Below are positions 2,436-10,172 of a stretch of 10,490 nucleotides of DNA, in pieces. The stretch comes from a virus. Under the pieces are notes generated by a model. That model did not search any database. It worked only from the letters and a program-made list of their open reading frames with translations, and was not told the origin of the DNA. The position numbers and the translations under genes were made by a program. Within the stretch, counting starts at the first letter, position 1. Every line of letters begins with the position of its first letter. The stretch is from the UHGV virus genome UHGV-1619017, one strand, 5' to 3'.

Positions 2436-2484
2436 ACGCTATTTCTCCCAGGTAGAGGCCACCTATGCAGGCGGCCTATGTCAC

Positions 2485-3219
2485 TTACAAACCGCGTTTT
2501 TTGCGAATGCGCATTGATTTTTTGCGGTTGATATTCGCTACGGATGTATGTGCTTTGCGGCGTGCTTTTTTCAGCGCCTGTTTTTGCAATGACGTCATGC
2601 GGCGAGGACGCGGGCGTTTACGGATGATGGTAACCTTGCCATCACGAACCACTTTTTTACGTACCGCTTCCAGCATTGCGCTATCACCACCAGCAACGGT
2701 GTAAATGGCAATAGCTGTTTCCATCATGTCGGTGTCGCTTTCGGAAAGAGCGTCATAAACACGTTCGGCAGCTGAGTCATCTTCATCGTCGATCATTTCG
2801 GTTACATCGTCCTGATCAGCGCCAAGCGCAACAGCTGCATCAGCAAGAGCTGCGAGAGCATCGTTATAAGCATCGATTTGCTCATCGGTGAAATCGGTGT
2901 CTTCATCGATATCAGCCAGGCCAGCCATAGTGATTGCTAATGCATCAAATGAGTCAGCCTCCGGATCACCATCTTCAACCCAACCAGCAAGCATGGAAGC
3001 TGCCAGGCTGCGCATATCACCTTGTGCACGGGATTCAACCGCTTCCATCATCGCGGTTTCAATGTCGTCTTTGGGCTTTGGTTGAGTGTCCTTTCCTTTC
3101 TGTCCTGCGCTTTCCAGCATGGCGTTATCATTATTGTCCTGCGTGGATTTATCACCGCTTTCAAAGCAGCCAGAACCGAAAATCGCACGCATAAAAGGAT
3201 CAGCAGTATAATTTTTCAT
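2485..3219 (-). CDS. Bipartite protein with a strongly acidic Asp/Glu-rich body and a highly basic Arg/Lys-rich C-terminal tail (244 aa from the ATG)
   Basis: The track start at 3225 is a TTG; the ATG at 3219..3217 is preceded by GGAGAGAGG with about 7 nt spacing and is the likelier start. Acidic region DIDEDTDFTDEQIDAYNDALAALADAAVALGADQDDVTEMIDDEDDSAAERVYDALSESDTDMMETA; basic tail KRPRPRRMTSLQKQALKKARRKAHTSVANINRKKSMRIRKKRGL. Antisense plus-strand ORFs in this span are short and lack ribosome-binding sites. Confidence 0.5.
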   Translation of the reverse strand: MKNYTADPFMRAIFGSGCFESGDKSTQDNNDNAMLESAGQKGKDTQPKPKDDIETAMMEAVESRAQGDMRSLAASMLAGWVEDGDPEADSFDALAITMAGLADIDEDTDFTDEQIDAYNDALAALADAAVALGADQDDVTEMIDDEDDSAAERVYDALSESDTDMMETAIAIYTVAGGDSAMLEAVRKKVVRDGKVTIIRKRPRPRRMTSLQKQALKKARRKAHTSVANINRKKSMRIRKKRGL

Positions 3220-4989: not shown

Positions 4990-5268
4990 TCAGGATTCGC
5001 CTACCGTGAAGTTGTCGCCTACGGTTACTTCTTTCGTAGTCGGTTCAACACTGACGGCGCTTACGCTTTTAGGTGCCTCCCTAACAGTGACCGTGCACTG
5101 TGCGGTTTTATTGCCGTCATTAGTTTTGATTGTCAGCACTGCCTGCCCTGCCTTAAGAGCGGTACATGTAGTGCCATCAACCCGGACAATTTCAGGGTGA
5201 TCGGACTCAACAGTGAAAGATTTGTCTGTTGCGTCAGATGGCGTGATAGTTACTTGAATGTTTGCCAT
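4990..5268 (-). CDS. Small Ig-like (Big_2-type) domain protein, possibly a virion decoration or accessory protein (92 aa)
   Basis: ATG at 5268..5266 with AGGAGA 5 nt upstream. Sequence FTVESDHPEIVRVDGTTCTALKAGQAVLTIKTNDGNKTAQCTVTV matches the bacterial Ig-like group 2 pattern (..VATVD..G.VTALKAG.A.ITA...DG.K.A.C.VTV). Ends inside what looks like the start of a second Ig repeat (SVSAVSVEPTTKEVTVGDNFTVGES). Confidence 0.6.
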   Translation of the reverse strand: MANIQVTITPSDATDKSFTVESDHPEIVRVDGTTCTALKAGQAVLTIKTNDGNKTAQCTVTVREAPKSVSAVSVEPTTKEVTVGDNFTVGES

Positions 5269-5301: not shown

Positions 5302-5414
5302 GTTTTTGCCTTACTTCTGCTTTGTTTTTTTCTGTGCCTTTGAAGTGTTCGCGGCGATAGTTTCACCTTCATCTACGTCAAGTGACGTTGGTGATACCGA
5401 CACGTTCGCCACCA

Positions 5415-7112: not shown

Positions 7113-7270
7113 GGTTAAGCCCTAAATTCGGGCGCGGCGTGAAGGTTCTTTTGACGAGCTAACAATACCAACTTTGTTATTTAGTCAATAGCATTAGTAA
7201 AATAAAATCTATTAACACTTATATTGTTATGTGCTTTAATTTTAGTTTTCTAACACAAATTATTAGAGTT
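7113..7270. promoter_or_regulatory. AT-rich divergent intergenic region between the capsid candidate (minus) and the ribbon-helix-helix gene (plus); putative promoters and operators
   Basis: About 160 bp, markedly AT-rich from 7160. Repeated motif ATTGTTA/TAACAAT: TAACAATA at 7160-7167 (inverted), TTGTTAT at 7175-7181, TATTGTTAT at 7222-7230. Minus-strand TTGACT -35-like hexamer (reverse complement of 7183-7188) without a clean -10. Promoter positions not resolved. Confidence 0.35.
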
Positions 7271-7663
7271 ATGGCGTATCGGATCTTTGTTTCGTATAAA
7301 AATGGCGCTAAAAGCCACTCCCTGAACACAACGAGCCGCTTTCTTGTTGAGGCGCAACTGGCATCAATTCTTGCTGAAAGTGAGATACTCTCCCTCGCTG
7401 AACGAATCGTCATCCAGTTTTCTGGTAGAGATATTCTTAATGTCCCCGCCCTCACCCCGTCCTCCGAAGTCATGGAATCAATTAAATGGCCTGTATGTGG
7501 ATGCCCGGCGAGAGTTGAAGAGCCGGTAACCGCTACGCTCTATATGCCGAAAGCAGTAAGAGACTGGCTTGCTGTGATTGGCAACGGGAAAGTCAGTGCT
7601 GGACTGCGAAAGTTAATTGAAATGGCAGATATTCCAGAGTTAAAAAACGCATGGCGACAATGA
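7271..7663 (+). CDS. Putative DNA-binding protein with C-terminal ribbon-helix-helix-like domain (130 aa)
   Basis: ATG at 7271 chosen over the in-frame ATG at 7229, which lies in the AT-rich promoter region and gives an implausible N-terminus. C-terminus TATLYMPKAVRDWLAVIGNGKVSAGLRKLIEMA fits a strand, helix, G-x-x-S turn, helix pattern like Arc/MetJ/CopG. Weak SD. The competing minus-strand ORF 7219..7473 runs into the AT-rich intergenic region and is judged spurious. Confidence 0.4.
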   Translation: MAYRIFVSYKNGAKSHSLNTTSRFLVEAQLASILAESEILSLAERIVIQFSGRDILNVPALTPSSEVMESIKWPVCGCPARVEEPVTATLYMPKAVRDWLAVIGNGKVSAGLRKLIEMADIPELKNAWRQ

Positions 7664-7680
7664 GTAAACAGGGGGGCAAA

Positions 7681-8139
7681 ATGAGTCACGCGAATCCATC
7701 AAAAACACAATATCGCTTAATGCTGGCGATCGCGTCAGCTATACCAACCAGCCTGAATCCCCCTGCTGGCTATCCCGCTGTTGTTGATGATTGTTTTCAG
7801 TATTACGGTGAAGACATTCTGGGACAGTCGAAAGCACTAAAACAGTTGTGCAAAGCCGGGATTCTTCACTGCATAGGCGATCCGGATGATTTTGTTGTCA
7901 TGCTGGCAGATCGTGACTCTTTTCTGCTGTCCTGGAAAGCCGGGGCGCGCGAAGCGCGTTTGGGGAATGGCATTGGCTACATAGACTATAGCGATTGCCC
8001 GCTGGCATTTGCTGGTGGATATATGCATTGGCATGAGCGAAATAGAGGCCGTCAGCGTCAGTATCGCTTGAGTGACTTTAACGTCTGTCACGGTTTCGAA
8101 GAAGCTGACAGCCAGGACATCTGGCTTCAGGAGCCTTGA
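7681..8139 (+). CDS. Hypothetical Cys/His-rich protein, likely co-transcribed with the upstream ribbon-helix-helix gene (152 aa from ATG 7681)
   Basis: Strong SD AGGGGGG 6 nt upstream of ATG 7681. In-frame ATGs at 7651 and 7660 would overlap the stop of the upstream gene (7661-7663), so the two genes are tightly coupled either way. Contains several Cys and His (C..YY, HC, DCP, HWH, CH) that could bind metal. No family recognised. Confidence 0.4.
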   Translation: MSHANPSKTQYRLMLAIASAIPTSLNPPAGYPAVVDDCFQYYGEDILGQSKALKQLCKAGILHCIGDPDDFVVMLADRDSFLLSWKAGAREARLGNGIGYIDYSDCPLAFAGGYMHWHERNRGRQRQYRLSDFNVCHGFEEADSQDIWLQEP

Positions 8140-8459
8140 TCCCCCTTCCCTTCCCAAATCTCCCTGTTTCTTTGGTTATTCAGTGCGTTTCGTTGGTTGC
8201 ATTCGTCGATCGTGCTGAATAACTGTTCAGCGTATGTCGGATACTTGTTTAACAGCACTGGCGTGTCCTCTGGCACTAAACAAGGGGAGTAATCAATCAG
8301 ATTTGCCTGCGGCTTGCTGGTGGCTTCTACGGTAATTTTCACTGGCACGCTGGTTGATGGCTTTTGCCCGTTCCCGCTGCATCCTGATAACGTCATCAGG
8401 CACACGCACATCGTTAATCCCAGCACGGCGCAACGCATTTTCAAGGCGAGTGATTTCAT
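8127..8459 (-). CDS. o-spanin (Rz1-like outer-membrane lipoprotein spanin subunit), start overlapping the i-spanin gene (110 aa precursor)
   Basis: Strong SD GGGAGGAAA upstream of ATG 8459. Signal peptide ending in lipobox LSGC (MKSLALKMRCAVLGLTMCVCLMTLSGC); mature part is Pro-rich and short with an extra Cys (SPCLVPEDTPV). Overlaps the i-spanin ORF by 167 nt out of frame (8293-8459), the classic overlapped spanin arrangement. Confidence 0.65.
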   Translation of the reverse strand: MKSLALKMRCAVLGLTMCVCLMTLSGCSGNGQKPSTSVPVKITVEATSKPQANLIDYSPCLVPEDTPVLLNKYPTYAEQLFSTIDECNQRNALNNQRNREIWEGKGDQGS

Positions 8460-8793
8460 TCTGGCTTTCCTCCCGCTGTTTGATCAGTCTGTTATTAAGT
8501 TCGGTTGTTTTGCGCTGGTAGTCTTTTTCCAGTTCTTTGATTCTTTCGTTTTCGACCTGCATGGCAGAGCGTGCGCCTTCACTTAACTGCAATGCGGTAG
8601 AAAGCGTGTTGTTCTCGCTTTCCAGTTGTGATTTTGAGTCTTCAAGCGACCGGACATACCTGATGTGTTCGATAACTGCCGTCGTTGTTCGGTAAATTCC
8701 AGAAATGGCTAAAAGCGCAATTACAATCAAAATTATCTTTTTCAAAACCACCCTCTTTAGTTTTTTTGGTGTTAAAAGTGTACCGTTTTGCAT
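8293..8793 (-). CDS. i-spanin (Rz-like inner-membrane spanin subunit) (166 aa)
   Basis: Short basic N-terminus (KKLKRVVLKK), a single hydrophobic transmembrane segment (IILIVIALLAISGIY), then a long charged, coiled-coil-like periplasmic region (SLEDSKSQLESENNTLSTALQ...ERIKELEKDYQRKTTELNNRLIKQREESQNEITRLENALRR). Same architecture as lambda Rz. Its 3' end contains the start of the lipoprotein gene in another frame. Confidence 0.65.
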   Translation of the reverse strand: MQNGTLLTPKKLKRVVLKKIILIVIALLAISGIYRTTTAVIEHIRYVRSLEDSKSQLESENNTLSTALQLSEGARSAMQVENERIKELEKDYQRKTTELNNRLIKQREESQNEITRLENALRRAGINDVRVPDDVIRMQRERAKAINQRASENYRRSHQQAAGKSD

Positions 8794-8818: not shown

Positions 8819-9622
8819 TTATGGTTCCTTTTTGGTGTTCTTTTGGAGCGCATCGATAACGCCTTGTGGCATGATTAAACTGATTGCCGGACTCATTACT
8901 GCATCGTCCAGTAGAGAACCTGTTAACGTGATTGCGACTGCGTTCTCTAAACCTTTGGTTGCCTGAGTTGTTGCCGTTTTAATGCGGTCAGCAAGGGCTA
9001 TGACACTCTCACTTGCTGAATTAATTCCGAAGAGTGAAACTTCAGCTACTGTTACCGCTTCCCGTAAAGCATCAATTTCATCCTGAGTAATGTCCGGAGC
9101 CTGTGCTGCCCCTCCACCAGCCTGTCCACCATCACTATCACCACCAGCACTCCCGGCAGCTTCAATTTTTGCGTTTATGGCGTTCATGGCGGTATTCAGA
9201 TCGTCAAGTTTCAGCGCCGCCAATGCGTCCGTTAATGATTGCGGGATGGAAACATTCCCCATCCCCTCTACCAGGGCGAACGCTGGCGCGGGGATCAGTT
9301 CATTACCTTTTGCGTGGCACTCCCAGCCAATCTTCATCTGTAACAACTCTGATGGCGTGGTGTATGGGGAAAGAGAGTCAGCCAGTGATGAAGAAGACTT
9401 GCTGGCCTCATTGAGCTGTTCGGAAAATCCAAGCAATTGAGTCGTCCAGGCCGACACTGAATCAGGATAGGTTTTATCAGGGTGAACCATTTCCTGTATT
9501 GCGCTCGCGAGTGACGAGGCTTTTGAAGAAGCCGCCAGGCTTATGGTTATTGATTCCGGTGTGGATGCACCAGCACCAGACAGAATTTGGAAGGCTTTAA
9601 CTTCACCTATTGAATCAAGCAT
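8819..9622 (-). CDS. Hypothetical protein, two-part with Ser/Ala-rich N-terminal half and Gly-rich linker (267 aa)
   Basis: ATG at 9622..9620 overlaps the TAA stop of the upstream PAAR-like gene (TAATG, 1-nt overlap), indicating translational coupling. Low-complexity linker AAGSAGGDSDGGQAGGGAAQAP. No transmembrane segment, no catalytic motif I can recognise. Antisense plus-strand ORFs here (9090..9440, 9103..9414) are artefacts. Confidence 0.45.
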   Translation of the reverse strand: MLDSIGEVKAFQILSGAGASTPESITISLAASSKASSLASAIQEMVHPDKTYPDSVSAWTTQLLGFSEQLNEASKSSSSLADSLSPYTTPSELLQMKIGWECHAKGNELIPAPAFALVEGMGNVSIPQSLTDALAALKLDDLNTAMNAINAKIEAAGSAGGDSDGGQAGGGAAQAPDITQDEIDALREAVTVAEVSLFGINSASESVIALADRIKTATTQATKGLENAVAITLTGSLLDDAVMSPAISLIMPQGVIDALQKNTKKEP

Positions 9623-9906
9623 TATGCGACCTGAAAAATATCCTCGCCGTTAGCGATAACAGAACCACAAGAAAGCGGATCGCCTACGCAGACTACTCCC
9701 TTTCCACCTATTGAATACCATGCCCGTGTCGATACAGCCGATCCGGGATGTGCACTGTTGCCATCTGTATGGCTGGGAAACATGGCACCATCCACAACAA
9801 CTGGCTTACCGTTGACGGTGAACCAGGGAACGGTTTCAGCTACCAGTCGCGGCGGAAATCCTCCGTGACCGGAACAAAGTGTGTCGCTGGTGGCTATTGC
9901 GCTCAT
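9622..9906 (-). CDS. PAAR-like small protein, candidate spike-tip protein of a contractile injection apparatus (94 aa)
   Basis: ATG at 9906..9904 with AGGAGA 6 nt upstream. Three repeated beta-turn segments with the spacing of PAAR repeats but degenerate motifs: SDTLCSGHGGFPP, VNGKPVVVDGAMFPSH, GKGVVCVGDPLSCGSVIANG. Compare canonical GD..C..HGG.I, INGKPAAR.GD, VGD...HGG.I. Memory-based, no HMM run. Confidence 0.4.
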   Translation of the reverse strand: MSAIATSDTLCSGHGGFPPRLVAETVPWFTVNGKPVVVDGAMFPSHTDGNSAHPGSAVSTRAWYSIGGKGVVCVGDPLSCGSVIANGEDIFQVA

Positions 9907-9953
9907 TCTTCATCTCCTGGTTATTCGCCTATTGTCATCACTTTGTTATTTCG

Positions 9954-10172
9954 TCACTCAAAGAGAGAGTGAAATCACGGAACATTTAAAATTCCCGTTT
10001 TGTTCTCAAATTGTTCTCACTTCTATCCAAGTGCCCGGCAGGCGATTAAAGATATTCTCAAAACAACCTCAATTATGACTCTTATTTATCTCTAATTATG
10101 TGGATTTTCGATGTCTTCTCTTTTAAAATCATGATTTGATTCTCAAATGTGTCTCAGAAGTGGAGCAAGAAG
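9954..10172 (+). promoter_or_regulatory. parC: parC-like centromere and promoter region upstream of parM, with TTCTCA-core direct repeats
   Basis: TTGTTCTCA at 10000-10008 and again at 10011-10019 (11-bp register), a degenerate third copy in phase (TTCTATCCA from 10022), and further copies TATTCTCAAAA at 10053-10063 and GATTCTCAAA at 10138-10147 just upstream of the parM ribosome-binding site. Imperfect inverted repeat TCACTC-N7-GAGTGA at 9954-9972. Possible sigma70-like -35 TGGATT (10101-10106), 17 bp, -10 TAAAAT (10124-10129). Position upstream of parM matches the parC-parM-parR layout. Region also holds the divergent promoter for the minus-strand operon starting at 9906. Confidence 0.5.

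What the first reader, a model, noticed from the sequence alone, without database searches (positions are those of the whole stretch)
8819..9906. PAAR-like spike-tip candidate translationally coupled to a 267-aa unknown protein, away from the tail gene cluster
The 94-aa protein shows three degenerate PAAR-like repeats. Its stop overlaps the start of a 267-aa two-part protein (TAATG), implying stoichiometric co-expression. PAAR proteins cap the spike of contractile injection machines and often carry or recruit cargo proteins. Here the pair is separated from the sheath and tube genes by the capsid gene and a regulatory cassette, and shares an operon with spanins. The 267-aa protein could be a spike-associated or injected protein of unknown function, which is the most likely place in this window for a new function.
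Basis: inference. Interest (0 to 1): 0.7.

Follow-up and report, generated by a model that had tools for sequence, protein, structure and literature searches.

The report
Phage spike tip and its tripod partner
These two overlapping genes of a D6-like phage-plasmid encode the sharp tip of the phage's membrane-piercing tail spike and a helical partner protein.

Summary
A 94-aa ORF (9622..9906, minus strand) and a 267-aa ORF (8819..9622, minus strand) share one base in a TAATG junction, and overlapping spanin genes follow 25 nt downstream.

The window is a D6-like phage-plasmid, 90.8% identical to phage D6.

**The 94-aa protein** is a PAAR spike tip.
- It matches the solved P1 UpfC chain 9vyi_A at E 8e-36.
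- Its AlphaFold model (pLDDT 94.7) superposes on UpfC at TM 0.96 and on T4 gp5.4 at TM 0.94.

**The 267-aa protein** is the D6-lineage orthologue of P1 UpfB.
- It matches phrog_1559 at 3e-98 and P7 UpfB over its full length (26% identity, E 4e-19).
- A January 2026 cryo-EM paper assigns UpfB to three trimers, a "tripod", on the P1 spike tip. That assignment rests on an AlphaFold3 model fitted into medium-resolution density.
- UpfB is absent from the published P1 virion mass-spectrometry list, and deleting upfB or upfC leaves P1 viable.

**What this work adds:**
- The family is small: 74 clusters among 1.84 billion representatives.
- It has no Pfam family or solved relative.
- Its gene follows the PAAR gene in 35 of 36 loci.
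- By dN/dS it evolves about four times faster than PAAR.

Interest is low to moderate.

The parts
9622..9906 (-). 94-aa PAAR spike-tip protein, orthologue of P1 UpfC and T4 gp5.4
   Evidence: PDB 9vyi_A UpfC matches at E 8.1e-36 and T4 gp5.4 (5iv5) at 1e-5. phrog_281 matches at 2.6e-29. The AF2 model has pLDDT 94.7. Foldseek gives TM 0.96 / 0.8 A to P1 UpfC, 0.94 to T4 gp5.4 and 0.87-0.88 to T6SS PAARs. Invariant residues are G13, H14, H46, H53, D76, C80, G81 and G87. dN/dS against D6 is 0.044.
9914..9918 (-). AGGAG ribosome-binding site, 7 nt before the PAAR start codon
   Evidence: Read directly from the sequence.
9620..9624 (-). TAATG junction: the PAAR stop codon TAA (9624-9622) shares base 9622 with the UpfB start codon ATG (9622-9620)
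   Evidence: Read directly from the sequence. The one-base overlap is kept in all D6-type loci, as TAATG or TGATG.
8819..9622 (-). 267-aa all-helical protein, D6-lineage orthologue of P1 UpfB (the 'tripod' on the spike tip)
   Evidence: phrog_1559 matches at 3.2e-98 over 1-264. BLASTP against P7 Upf63.6 gives 26% identity over the full length, E 4e-19. D6 orf56 is annotated 'similar to P1 gene upfB'. The 52-member family alignment includes P1 UpfB. The AF2 model has pLDDT 80.9 and pTM 0.73 and is all-alpha. There is no transmembrane segment. No Pfam, NCBIfam or PADLOC family matches. dN/dS is 0.17.
9095..9148 (-). Gly/Ala/Ser-rich flexible linker of the 267-aa protein (residues about 159-176)
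   Evidence: Residues 160-172 have pLDDT below 50. This stretch varies in length and is low in complexity in all family members.
8293..8793 (-). i-spanin (Rz-like; P1 ppfA position), starting 25 nt after the 267-aa stop codon
   Evidence: phrog_214 'Rz-like spanin' matches at 1.6e-15. It has an N-terminal hydrophobic segment VLKKIILIVIALLAISGIY followed by a coiled-coil-like sequence. The position matches the P1/P7 ppfA-mlp pair. PMC9025707 names ppfA and mlp as the P1 spanins.
8127..8459 (-). o-spanin lipoprotein (Rz1-like; P1 mlp position), overlapping the 3' part of the i-spanin gene
   Evidence: phrog_456 matches at 2.8e-5 and Pfam O_Spanin_T7 weakly at 0.012. It has an LSGC lipobox.
9907..10163 (.). 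Intergenic region between the PAAR gene and the divergent parM/stbA gene. The operon's promoter must lie here but was not identified.
   Evidence: No sigma-70 consensus site was found. There is no P1-type late box AAGTNACTT and no C1 operator. Repeated TTCTCAAAT-type motifs are probably partition sites.

Best explanation
The pair are the D6-lineage orthologues of phage P1 UpfC and UpfB.

The 94-aa protein folds into a PAAR cone. It probably holds a metal ion through H14, H46, H53 and C80. One copy caps the blunt end of the trimeric gp5-type beta-helical tail spike and sharpens it for puncturing the outer membrane when the sheath contracts.

The 267-aa protein is a soluble all-helical protein: an N-terminal bundle, a flexible Gly/Ala linker and a long C-terminal helix. 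By homology with P1 it trimerises, and three trimers dock on the three pseudo-equivalent faces of the PAAR cone. This forms a 'tripod' at the very tip of the tail.

Both genes are read from one message together with the spanin pair. The one-base stop/start overlap ensures UpfB is made whenever the tip is made.

The tripod is an accessory. It is dispensable for plaque formation in the laboratory. It evolves faster than the tip and is therefore likely to tune envelope contact or penetration on particular hosts.

What is shown: gene structure, PAAR identity and fold, orthology to UpfB, and synteny. What is taken from the literature: the tip position of UpfC (atomic model) and the tripod assignment of UpfB (AlphaFold3 model fitted into medium-resolution density). 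What is inferred: the trimer, docking on PAAR faces in D6-type phages, the role in penetration, and co-transcription with the spanins.
For: The window is a D6-like phage-plasmid.

**PAAR identity**
- PDB UpfC matches at 8e-36 and T4 gp5.4 at 1e-5.
- The model superposes on 9vyi at TM 0.96 / 0.8 A, and on 4ku0, 4jiv and 4jiw.
- His/Cys residues are invariant.

**UpfB orthology**
- phrog_1559 matches at 3e-98.
- The alignment to P7 and P1 UpfB is collinear over the full length, with the linker in the same place.
- The gene order upfC-upfB-i-spanin-o-spanin is the same in P1, P7 and JK004.

**Linkage and selection**
- PAAR lies immediately upstream of UpfB in 35 of 36 loci, and the one-base overlap is conserved.
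- Both genes are under purifying selection, with omega 0.04 and 0.17.

**Literature**
- P1 cryo-EM shows a UpfC monomer on the gp5 trimer and UpfB as three trimers on the tip (PMC12810830).
- UpfC is equated with T4 gp5.4 (PMC9024508; PMC12407873).

The spike gene itself (the P1 gene 5 homologue) exists in D6, 7.3 kb from the PAAR gene.
Against: - UpfB was not among the proteins found by LC-MS/MS in purified P1 virions, although gp6, at only 3 copies per virion, was found (PMC9024508 Table S4 list).
- The cryo-EM paper gives no biochemical identification. It fitted an AlphaFold3 model into a medium-resolution map.
- A second P1 baseplate study does not mention UpfB.
- Deletion or knock-down of upfB and upfC has no plaque phenotype, so no function has been demonstrated.
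- In one distant lineage (L035) the UpfB homologue lies 3 kb from the PAAR gene.
- No complex prediction could be run here.
- Identity to P1 UpfB is only 26%, so docking geometry may differ.
Confidence: 0.7

Rival explanations
1. The 267-aa protein is not a stable virion part. Instead it is a cytoplasmic helper made alongside the tip, for example an assembly chaperone or adaptor for the PAAR-spike complex that is released before or during tail completion.
For: UpfB is absent from the P1 virion LC-MS/MS list, while lower-copy proteins were detected. It is tightly coupled to the PAAR gene. It is soluble and all-helical with no enzymatic signature. It is dispensable.
Against: There is extra density at the P1 spike tip into which a UpfB trimer model fits. 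T4 gp5.4 and other phage PAARs fold and assemble without such a partner. UpfB shows no similarity to T6SS PAAR chaperones or adaptors.
Confidence: 0.15
2. The 267-aa protein is cargo. It rides on the PAAR tip and is delivered into the host envelope or cytoplasm, where it acts on the host, for example against a defence system or to aid membrane passage. This would be analogous to T6SS PAAR-linked effectors.
For: Its position at the tip means it enters the periplasm first (PMC12407873 shows spike translocation into the periplasm for P2). It evolves about 4-fold faster than PAAR by dN/dS and diverges much further in identity.
Against: P1 delta-upfB shows 'normal restriction' on EcoA, EcoB and EcoK hosts. 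No toxin, enzyme or defence-related family matches. There is no transmembrane segment. Foldseek finds only generic helical bundles in the PDB.
Confidence: 0.1
3. The 267-aa protein belongs functionally to the lysis or spanin module with which it is co-transcribed, for example as a spanin regulator, and its adjacency to PAAR is incidental.
For: It shares a strand with the i-spanin and is separated from it by only a 25-nt gap. The block is conserved in P1, P7 and JK004.
Against: It has no signal peptide or membrane segment, so it cannot reach the periplasm where spanins act. In L035 it sits next to the capsid and sheath genes with no spanin nearby. The stop/start overlap is with PAAR, not with the spanin gene.
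Confidence: 0.04

Closest known systems
Phage P1 UpfC (PDB 9vyi chain A) and T4 gp5.4 (PDB 4ku0, 5iv5): phage PAAR spike-tip proteins
   Same: Both are 94 aa long. Identity to UpfC is 56-57%, and the predicted fold superposes at TM 0.96 / 0.8 A (0.94 on gp5.4). The conserved His/His/His/Cys positions are the same. The protein is a single small domain with no extension.
   Different: In T4 and many other myoviruses the gene lies beside the spike gene. Here, as in P1, it is detached from the baseplate genes and heads an operon with UpfB and the spanins. The Pfam PAAR_motif score is 0.3 bits under the curated cut-off.
Phage P1 UpfB (P7 Upf63.6), the 'tripod' of the P1 baseplate (PMC12810830)
   Same: It belongs to the same PHROG family (phrog_1559), has about the same length and aligns collinearly over the full length. 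The N-terminal ML(D/E), YP, IGW(D/E) and IN motifs are conserved, and the Gly/Ala/Pro-rich linker is in the same place. The gene follows the PAAR gene and precedes the spanins.
   Different: Identity is only 26-28%. D6-type genes overlap the PAAR stop codon by one base, while P1-type genes start 8-9 nt after it. Nothing experimental exists for the D6-type protein.
T6SS PAAR proteins with effector domains or adaptor/chaperone partners (VCA0105 4jiv, c1882 4jiw)
   Same: The PAAR cone fold is the same, at TM 0.87-0.88. The general idea of a partner protein carried on the PAAR tip is shared.
   Different: This PAAR has no N- or C-terminal extension. The partner has no similarity to known effectors, Eag/DUF1795, DUF4123 or DUF2169 adaptors. 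The partner is proposed to bind as three trimers rather than as a single cargo.
DUF7217 (PF23854) proteins of Ackermannviridae, e.g. CBA120 orf171
   Same: These are the best Foldseek matches among predicted viral structures (E 3.5e-3 to 0.05, prob about 1, TM 0.43-0.58) and are of similar size and all-helical. CBA120 orf171 is also the top, though weak, hit of the UpfB profile among CBA120 ORFs (E 0.017) and is itself DUF7217 at 3e-102.
   Different: Profile-profile comparison gives only 4.6% probability. None of the 52 UpfB members hits DUF7217 in Pfam. In CBA120 the gene is not next to a PAAR gene. Homology is not established.

Membership tests
PAAR spike-tip proteins (Pfam PF05488; T4 gp5.4 / P1 UpfC type) | Significant sequence match to PAAR profiles or to solved PAAR proteins | tested here: met
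   PDB UpfC matches at 8.1e-36, T4 gp5.4 at 1e-5 and VCA0105 at 0.011. phrog_281 matches at 2.6e-29. NCBIfam T6SS_PAAR_dom matches at 1e-8, below its equivalog cut-off. Pfam scores 26.7 bits against a 27-bit cut-off, while close homologues carry PF05488 in precomputed annotation.
PAAR spike-tip proteins (Pfam PF05488; T4 gp5.4 / P1 UpfC type) | Compact conical beta structure built from three PAAR-like repeats | tested here: met
   The AF2 model has pLDDT 94.7 and is all-beta. Foldseek gives TM 0.96 to 9vyi, 0.94 to 4ku0_D and 0.87-0.88 to 4jiw_D and 4jiv_D.
PAAR spike-tip proteins (Pfam PF05488; T4 gp5.4 / P1 UpfC type) | Conserved His/Cys metal site near the apex | tested here: inconclusive
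   H14, H46, H53 and C80 are invariant in 30 homologues and align with His/Cys of T4 gp5.4. Metal binding itself cannot be tested here. That these residues are the ligands is from my memory of the PAAR crystal structures.
PAAR spike-tip proteins (Pfam PF05488; T4 gp5.4 / P1 UpfC type) | Sits on the blunt end of a trimeric gp5/VgrG beta-helix in the particle | not testable with these tools
   This is shown for P1 UpfC in the literature. D6 has a P1 gene-5 homologue 7.3 kb away, outside this window.
UpfB family (phrog_1559; P1 'tripod') | Full-length homology to P1/P7 UpfB | tested here: met
   phrog_1559 matches at 3.2e-98 over 1-264 of 263 profile positions. BLASTP against P7 gives E 4e-19 at 98% coverage. 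An exhaustive profile search recovers a single coherent family of 240-265-aa proteins.
UpfB family (phrog_1559; P1 'tripod') | Gene directly downstream of, and coupled to, the PAAR gene | tested here: met
   This holds in 35 of 36 loci, with a gap of -1, 0, 8 or 9 nt. The exception is L035.
UpfB family (phrog_1559; P1 'tripod') | Forms trimers, three of which attach to the PAAR tip | not testable with these tools
The profile gives weak, non-significant matches to trimeric coiled coils such as coronavirus HR1 and Lpp.
UpfB family (phrog_1559; P1 'tripod') | Present in the virion | not testable with these tools
   The literature is mixed: there is a cryo-EM density fit, but UpfB is not in the P1 LC-MS/MS list.
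T6SS-type PAAR effector/adaptor pairs | PAAR carries a toxin extension, or the neighbouring gene is a known adaptor, chaperone or effector family | tested here: not met
   The PAAR is 94 aa with no extension. The neighbour has no Pfam, NCBIfam or PADLOC match.
DUF7217 (PF23854) | Match to the Pfam model or a significant profile-profile match | tested here: not met
   None of the 52 members hits the model. hhalign gives 4.6% probability. There is only a Foldseek resemblance.
Two-component spanins (Rz/Rz1 type), for the downstream genes | Type II inner-membrane protein plus an outer-membrane lipoprotein encoded by overlapping genes | tested here: met
   PHROG spanin families match. An N-terminal transmembrane segment and an LSGC lipobox are present, and the genes overlap over 8293-8459. 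The P1 counterparts ppfA and mlp are named as spanins in PMC9025707.

The most novel reading that the evidence does not exclude
UpfB-type proteins may be a lineage-specific, fast-evolving attachment on the PAAR tip, found only in P1/D6-type phage-plasmids. In this reading they decide whether the spike can cross the envelope of particular hosts, for example hosts with truncated or altered LPS, much as T4 gp5.4 matters only on rough strains. They may also be released into the periplasm as the first phage protein to enter the cell. A possible distant structural relative in Ackermannviridae (DUF7217) would make this a wider, unrecognised class of tail-tip accessory.
Probability: 0.2. Interest if true: 0.55.

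Novelty: new member of a known kind. Interest (0 to 1): 0.3.

Why it matters
D6- and P1-type phage-plasmids are common in E. coli and Salmonella. This region is present in 122 PLSDB plasmids, and these elements move resistance genes.

The spike tip is the first part of the particle to meet the cell envelope. A protein hanging on it is a plausible determinant of host range or entry efficiency.

The practical value of this work is modest:
- It ties an unnamed, Pfam-less 267-aa 'hypothetical protein' in hundreds of plasmid records to the P1 tripod protein.
- It corrects a widespread 'alanine racemase' label on the PAAR gene.
- It shows that the tripod assignment in P1 still lacks biochemical confirmation.

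Tried and rejected
- **Solved-structure relatives of the 267-aa protein.** Foldseek against the PDB gave nothing at E <= 1e-3, only BAR/PilJ-type helical bundles at TM below 0.35. phmmer and a profile search against PDB sequences also found nothing.
- **Pfam, NCBIfam and PADLOC.** No family matched the 267-aa protein or any of its 52 relatives.
- **DUF7217 lead.** It looked promising in BFVD and in a small hmmsearch, but failed profile-profile comparison. I rejected it as established homology.
- **Membrane protein or pore-former idea.** There is no hydrophobic stretch; the maximum 19-residue Kyte-Doolittle mean is 1.39.
- **Promoter search upstream of PAAR.** I found no sigma-70 consensus, no P1 late box and no C1 operator. 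The terminator-like hairpins inside the PAAR gene are no more frequent than in shuffled sequence.
- **Complex prediction.** Co-folding PAAR with UpfB could not be done with the tools and caps.
Full report
**What the window is.** All structural genes in the window lie on the minus strand. The 3.4 kb around the finding is 90.8% identical to Escherichia phage D6. It is 91-98.5% identical to 122 non-mobilisable E. coli, Salmonella and Shigella plasmids of about 90 kb. The window is therefore part of a D6-like phage-plasmid, a relative of P1. The D6 record names the window's genes by their P1 counterparts: tub, pmgC, bplB, pmgG, 21, 22 (sheath) and 23 (capsid). After two plus-strand ORFs and two small minus-strand ORFs come orf56 'similar to P1 gene upfB' and orf57 'similar to P1 gene upfC', followed by a divergent StbA/ParM partition gene.

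**Checking the observation.** The 94-aa ORF (9622..9906) and the 267-aa ORF (8819..9622) are as described. The sequence reads GCA TAA for the end of the first and ATG CTT for the start of the second, sharing base 9622, which gives TAATG. An AGGAG sits 7 nt before the first ATG, while only a weak AGG precedes the second. This fits termination-reinitiation coupling.

- I collected 36 loci that encode a relative of the 267-aa protein. In 35 of them a PAAR gene lies immediately upstream.
- All D6-type loci keep the one-base overlap, down to about 40% identity of the second protein, even where the stop changes from TAA to TGA. P1, P7 and Cronobacter phage JK004 have an 8-9 nt gap instead.
- Both genes are under purifying selection. 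Against D6, dN/dS is 0.044 for PAAR and 0.171 for the second gene.

The feature is real and not a chance arrangement.

**The 94-aa protein.**
- It matches PHROG 281 at 2.6e-29.
- It matches the solved P1 UpfC chain 9vyi_A at 8.1e-36, T4 gp5.4 at 1e-5 and the Vibrio T6SS PAAR 4jiv_D at 0.011.
- Pfam PAAR_motif scores 26.7 bits against a cut-off of 27. Close homologues do carry PF05488 in precomputed annotation.
- An AlphaFold2 model built on 30 homologues has pLDDT 94.7.
- That model superposes on UpfC in the P1 baseplate at TM 0.96 and 0.8 A. It superposes on T4 gp5.4 at 0.94 and on T6SS PAARs at 0.87-0.88.
- H14, H46, H53 and C80 are invariant and align with the corresponding residues of gp5.4. 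From memory of the PAAR crystal structures, these are the apex metal ligands.

**The 267-aa protein: homology.**
- It matches PHROG 1559, a family of unknown function, at 3.2e-98 over its whole length.
- tblastn against phages finds only D6, JK004 and P7.
- BLASTP against P7 Upf63.6 (UpfB) gives 26% identity over 98% of the length at E 4e-19. The Gly-rich linker falls at the same position.
- An exhaustive profile search of 1.84 billion representatives finds only 74 clusters at E <= 1e-3, mostly full-length proteins of 240-265 aa plus some shorter fragments.
- A 52-member alignment that includes P1 UpfB shows conserved ML(D/E) at the N-terminus, Y52-P53, I98-G99-W100, N150, a variable Gly/Ala/Pro linker and a conserved C-terminal A...I.P..V segment.

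**The 267-aa protein: structure and family searches.**
- The AlphaFold2 monomer (pLDDT 80.9, pTM 0.73) is all-helical. It has a disordered linker at 160-172 and a long helix at 180-238.
- There is no hydrophobic segment.
- No Pfam, NCBIfam or PADLOC family matches any member.
- No solved structure is related by sequence or by fold.

**What the literature says about the P1 orthologues.**
- Gonzales et al. 2022 (PMC9024508) identified UpfC by HHpred as the T4 gp5.4-like spike tip. Its deletion had no plaque phenotype, and it was not detected by LC-MS/MS.
- Their Table S3 lists delta-upfB and delta-upfC as viable with 'normal restriction' on EcoA, EcoB and EcoK hosts. Their list of LC-MS/MS virion proteins does not include UpfB.
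- CRISPRi knock-down also scores upfB and upfC as non-essential (PMC10695390).
- A January 2026 cryo-EM study (PMC12810830) built UpfC as a monomer on the gp5 trimer. [quoted passage not shown] The tripod was seen only at medium resolution and fitted with an AlphaFold3 trimer, and its role as a 'membrane-piercing apparatus' is explicitly speculative.
- That paper reports no mass spectrometry.
- A second P1 baseplate preprint models UpfC but does not mention UpfB.
- For T4, gp5.4 is dispensable for assembly but needed for fitness and for infecting hosts with truncated LPS (PMC12407873).

**Surroundings.**
- Twenty-five nucleotides after the 267-aa stop begins a 166-aa Rz-like i-spanin with an N-terminal membrane segment. 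A 110-aa lipoprotein o-spanin with an LSGC lipobox overlaps it.
- P1 and P7 have the same block: upfC, upfB, ppfA, mlp, upfA. ppfA and mlp are regarded as the P1 spanins (PMC9025707).
- No terminator-like site separates the genes. The hairpins found lie inside the PAAR gene and are no more frequent than in shuffled sequence.
- I could not find the promoter in the 257-bp region between PAAR and parM. There is no sigma-70 consensus, no P1-type late box and no C1 operator. The repeats there look like partition sites.
- The spike gene itself (the P1 gene 5 homologue) lies 7.3 kb away in D6.
- In more distant relatives the PAAR gene sits in the canonical place after the spike gene. In L035 the UpfB homologue lies 3 kb further on, next to capsid and sheath. 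In L038 there is no UpfB, and a DarA_N-domain protein follows PAAR.

**Most likely mechanism.**
- One PAAR cone caps the gp5-type spike.
- UpfB trimers dock on the three pseudo-equivalent faces of the cone and form a flexible tripod at the tail tip.
- The two proteins are made together from overlapping genes, with the spanins on the same message.
- The tripod is an accessory that evolves about four times faster than the tip. This would fit a part exposed to the host surface.
- Coupling guarantees co-expression, not equal amounts: the P1 model needs 1 PAAR to 9 UpfB.

I put 0.7 on this overall. The PAAR identity and the UpfB orthology are near certain. The weak step is UpfB's physical place on the virion.

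**Rivals.**
- A non-virion assembly helper (0.15). This is favoured by the missing mass-spectrometry signal.
- A delivered cargo protein (0.10). This is disfavoured by the normal restriction phenotype and the lack of any effector signature.
- A lysis-module protein (0.04). This is disfavoured by the lack of any export signal and by the L035 arrangement.

**A lead that did not hold.** The best matches among predicted viral structures are DUF7217 proteins of Ackermannviridae (E 3.5e-3 to 0.05, TM 0.43-0.58). The top, weak hit of the UpfB profile among CBA120 ORFs is exactly its DUF7217 protein orf171. However, profile-profile comparison gives 4.6% probability, and orf171 is not next to a PAAR gene. 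I record this as a resemblance, not homology.

**Verdict.** The pair is a divergent member of a kind already described in P1 and already cross-referenced in the D6 GenBank record. What remains open is what the tripod does and whether UpfB really is the tripod. Interest is 0.3.

Noticed in passing
window 9622-9906, and homologues in public records: PAAR proteins of this clade are widely labelled 'alanine racemase' in NCBI, UniRef and PLSDB records. This is a propagated misannotation.
   Followed up: partly
window 9985-10156: Four copies of a TTCTCAAAT-type motif, within two 35-nt imperfect direct repeats, lie between the PAAR gene and the divergent parM/stbA gene. They are probably the partition centromere or ParR operator. 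The PAAR-operon promoter must share this region.
   Followed up: no
window 7229-7663 and 7651-8139 (+ strand): Two overlapping plus-strand ORFs (144 and 162 aa; phrog_7830 and phrog_8101) have no Pfam, NCBIfam or PADLOC match. The second converges on the o-spanin gene and overlaps its 3' end by 13 nt (8127-8139).
   Followed up: partly
L038 4001-4765 (99-kb contig JBEANV010000543.1): In a distant relative the PAAR gene sits directly after a Phage_base_V spike gene and a 191-aa ORF. It is followed by a 152-aa protein with a DarA_N domain instead of UpfB. DarA is an internal head anti-restriction protein in P1, so a DarA_N protein beside a spike tip is odd.
   Followed up: no
L035 662-947 and 4001-4765 (IMG/VR UViG_2609460227_000001, 87 kb): In a distant P1-like contig the PAAR reading frame appears broken near position 840 (frameshift or sequencing error). 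Its UpfB homologue is 3 kb away, directly upstream of the capsid and sheath genes.
   Followed up: partly
L004 3483-4328 (P1 upfB) and L002 4944-5786 (P7 upf63.6): The GenBank start codons of P1 and P7 upfB overlap upfC by 49 nt. The family alignment puts the real start at the conserved MLEKD, 8 nt after the upfC stop and behind a GGAG. P1 UpfB is then probably 262 aa rather than 281.
   Followed up: partly
L037 45169-45897 (CBA120 orf171, DUF7217): Ackermannviridae DUF7217 proteins are the nearest predicted-structure neighbours of the 267-aa protein. Profile-profile comparison does not support homology.
   Followed up: yes
window 2478-2486 and 5380-5388: One-mismatch copies of the P1 late-promoter -22 box (AAGTNACTT) lie in or at the edge of intergenic gaps upstream of the pmgG-like gene and the Ig-domain gene. 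The total count in the window (7) is not above chance, since 24 of 200 shuffles reach it.
   Followed up: no
window 4990-5268 (-): A 92-aa ORF between the sheath and capsid genes consists of little more than a Big_2 Ig-like domain (Pfam 2.6e-8; phrog_215 'structural protein with Ig domain'). It may be a capsid or tail decoration protein.
   Followed up: no
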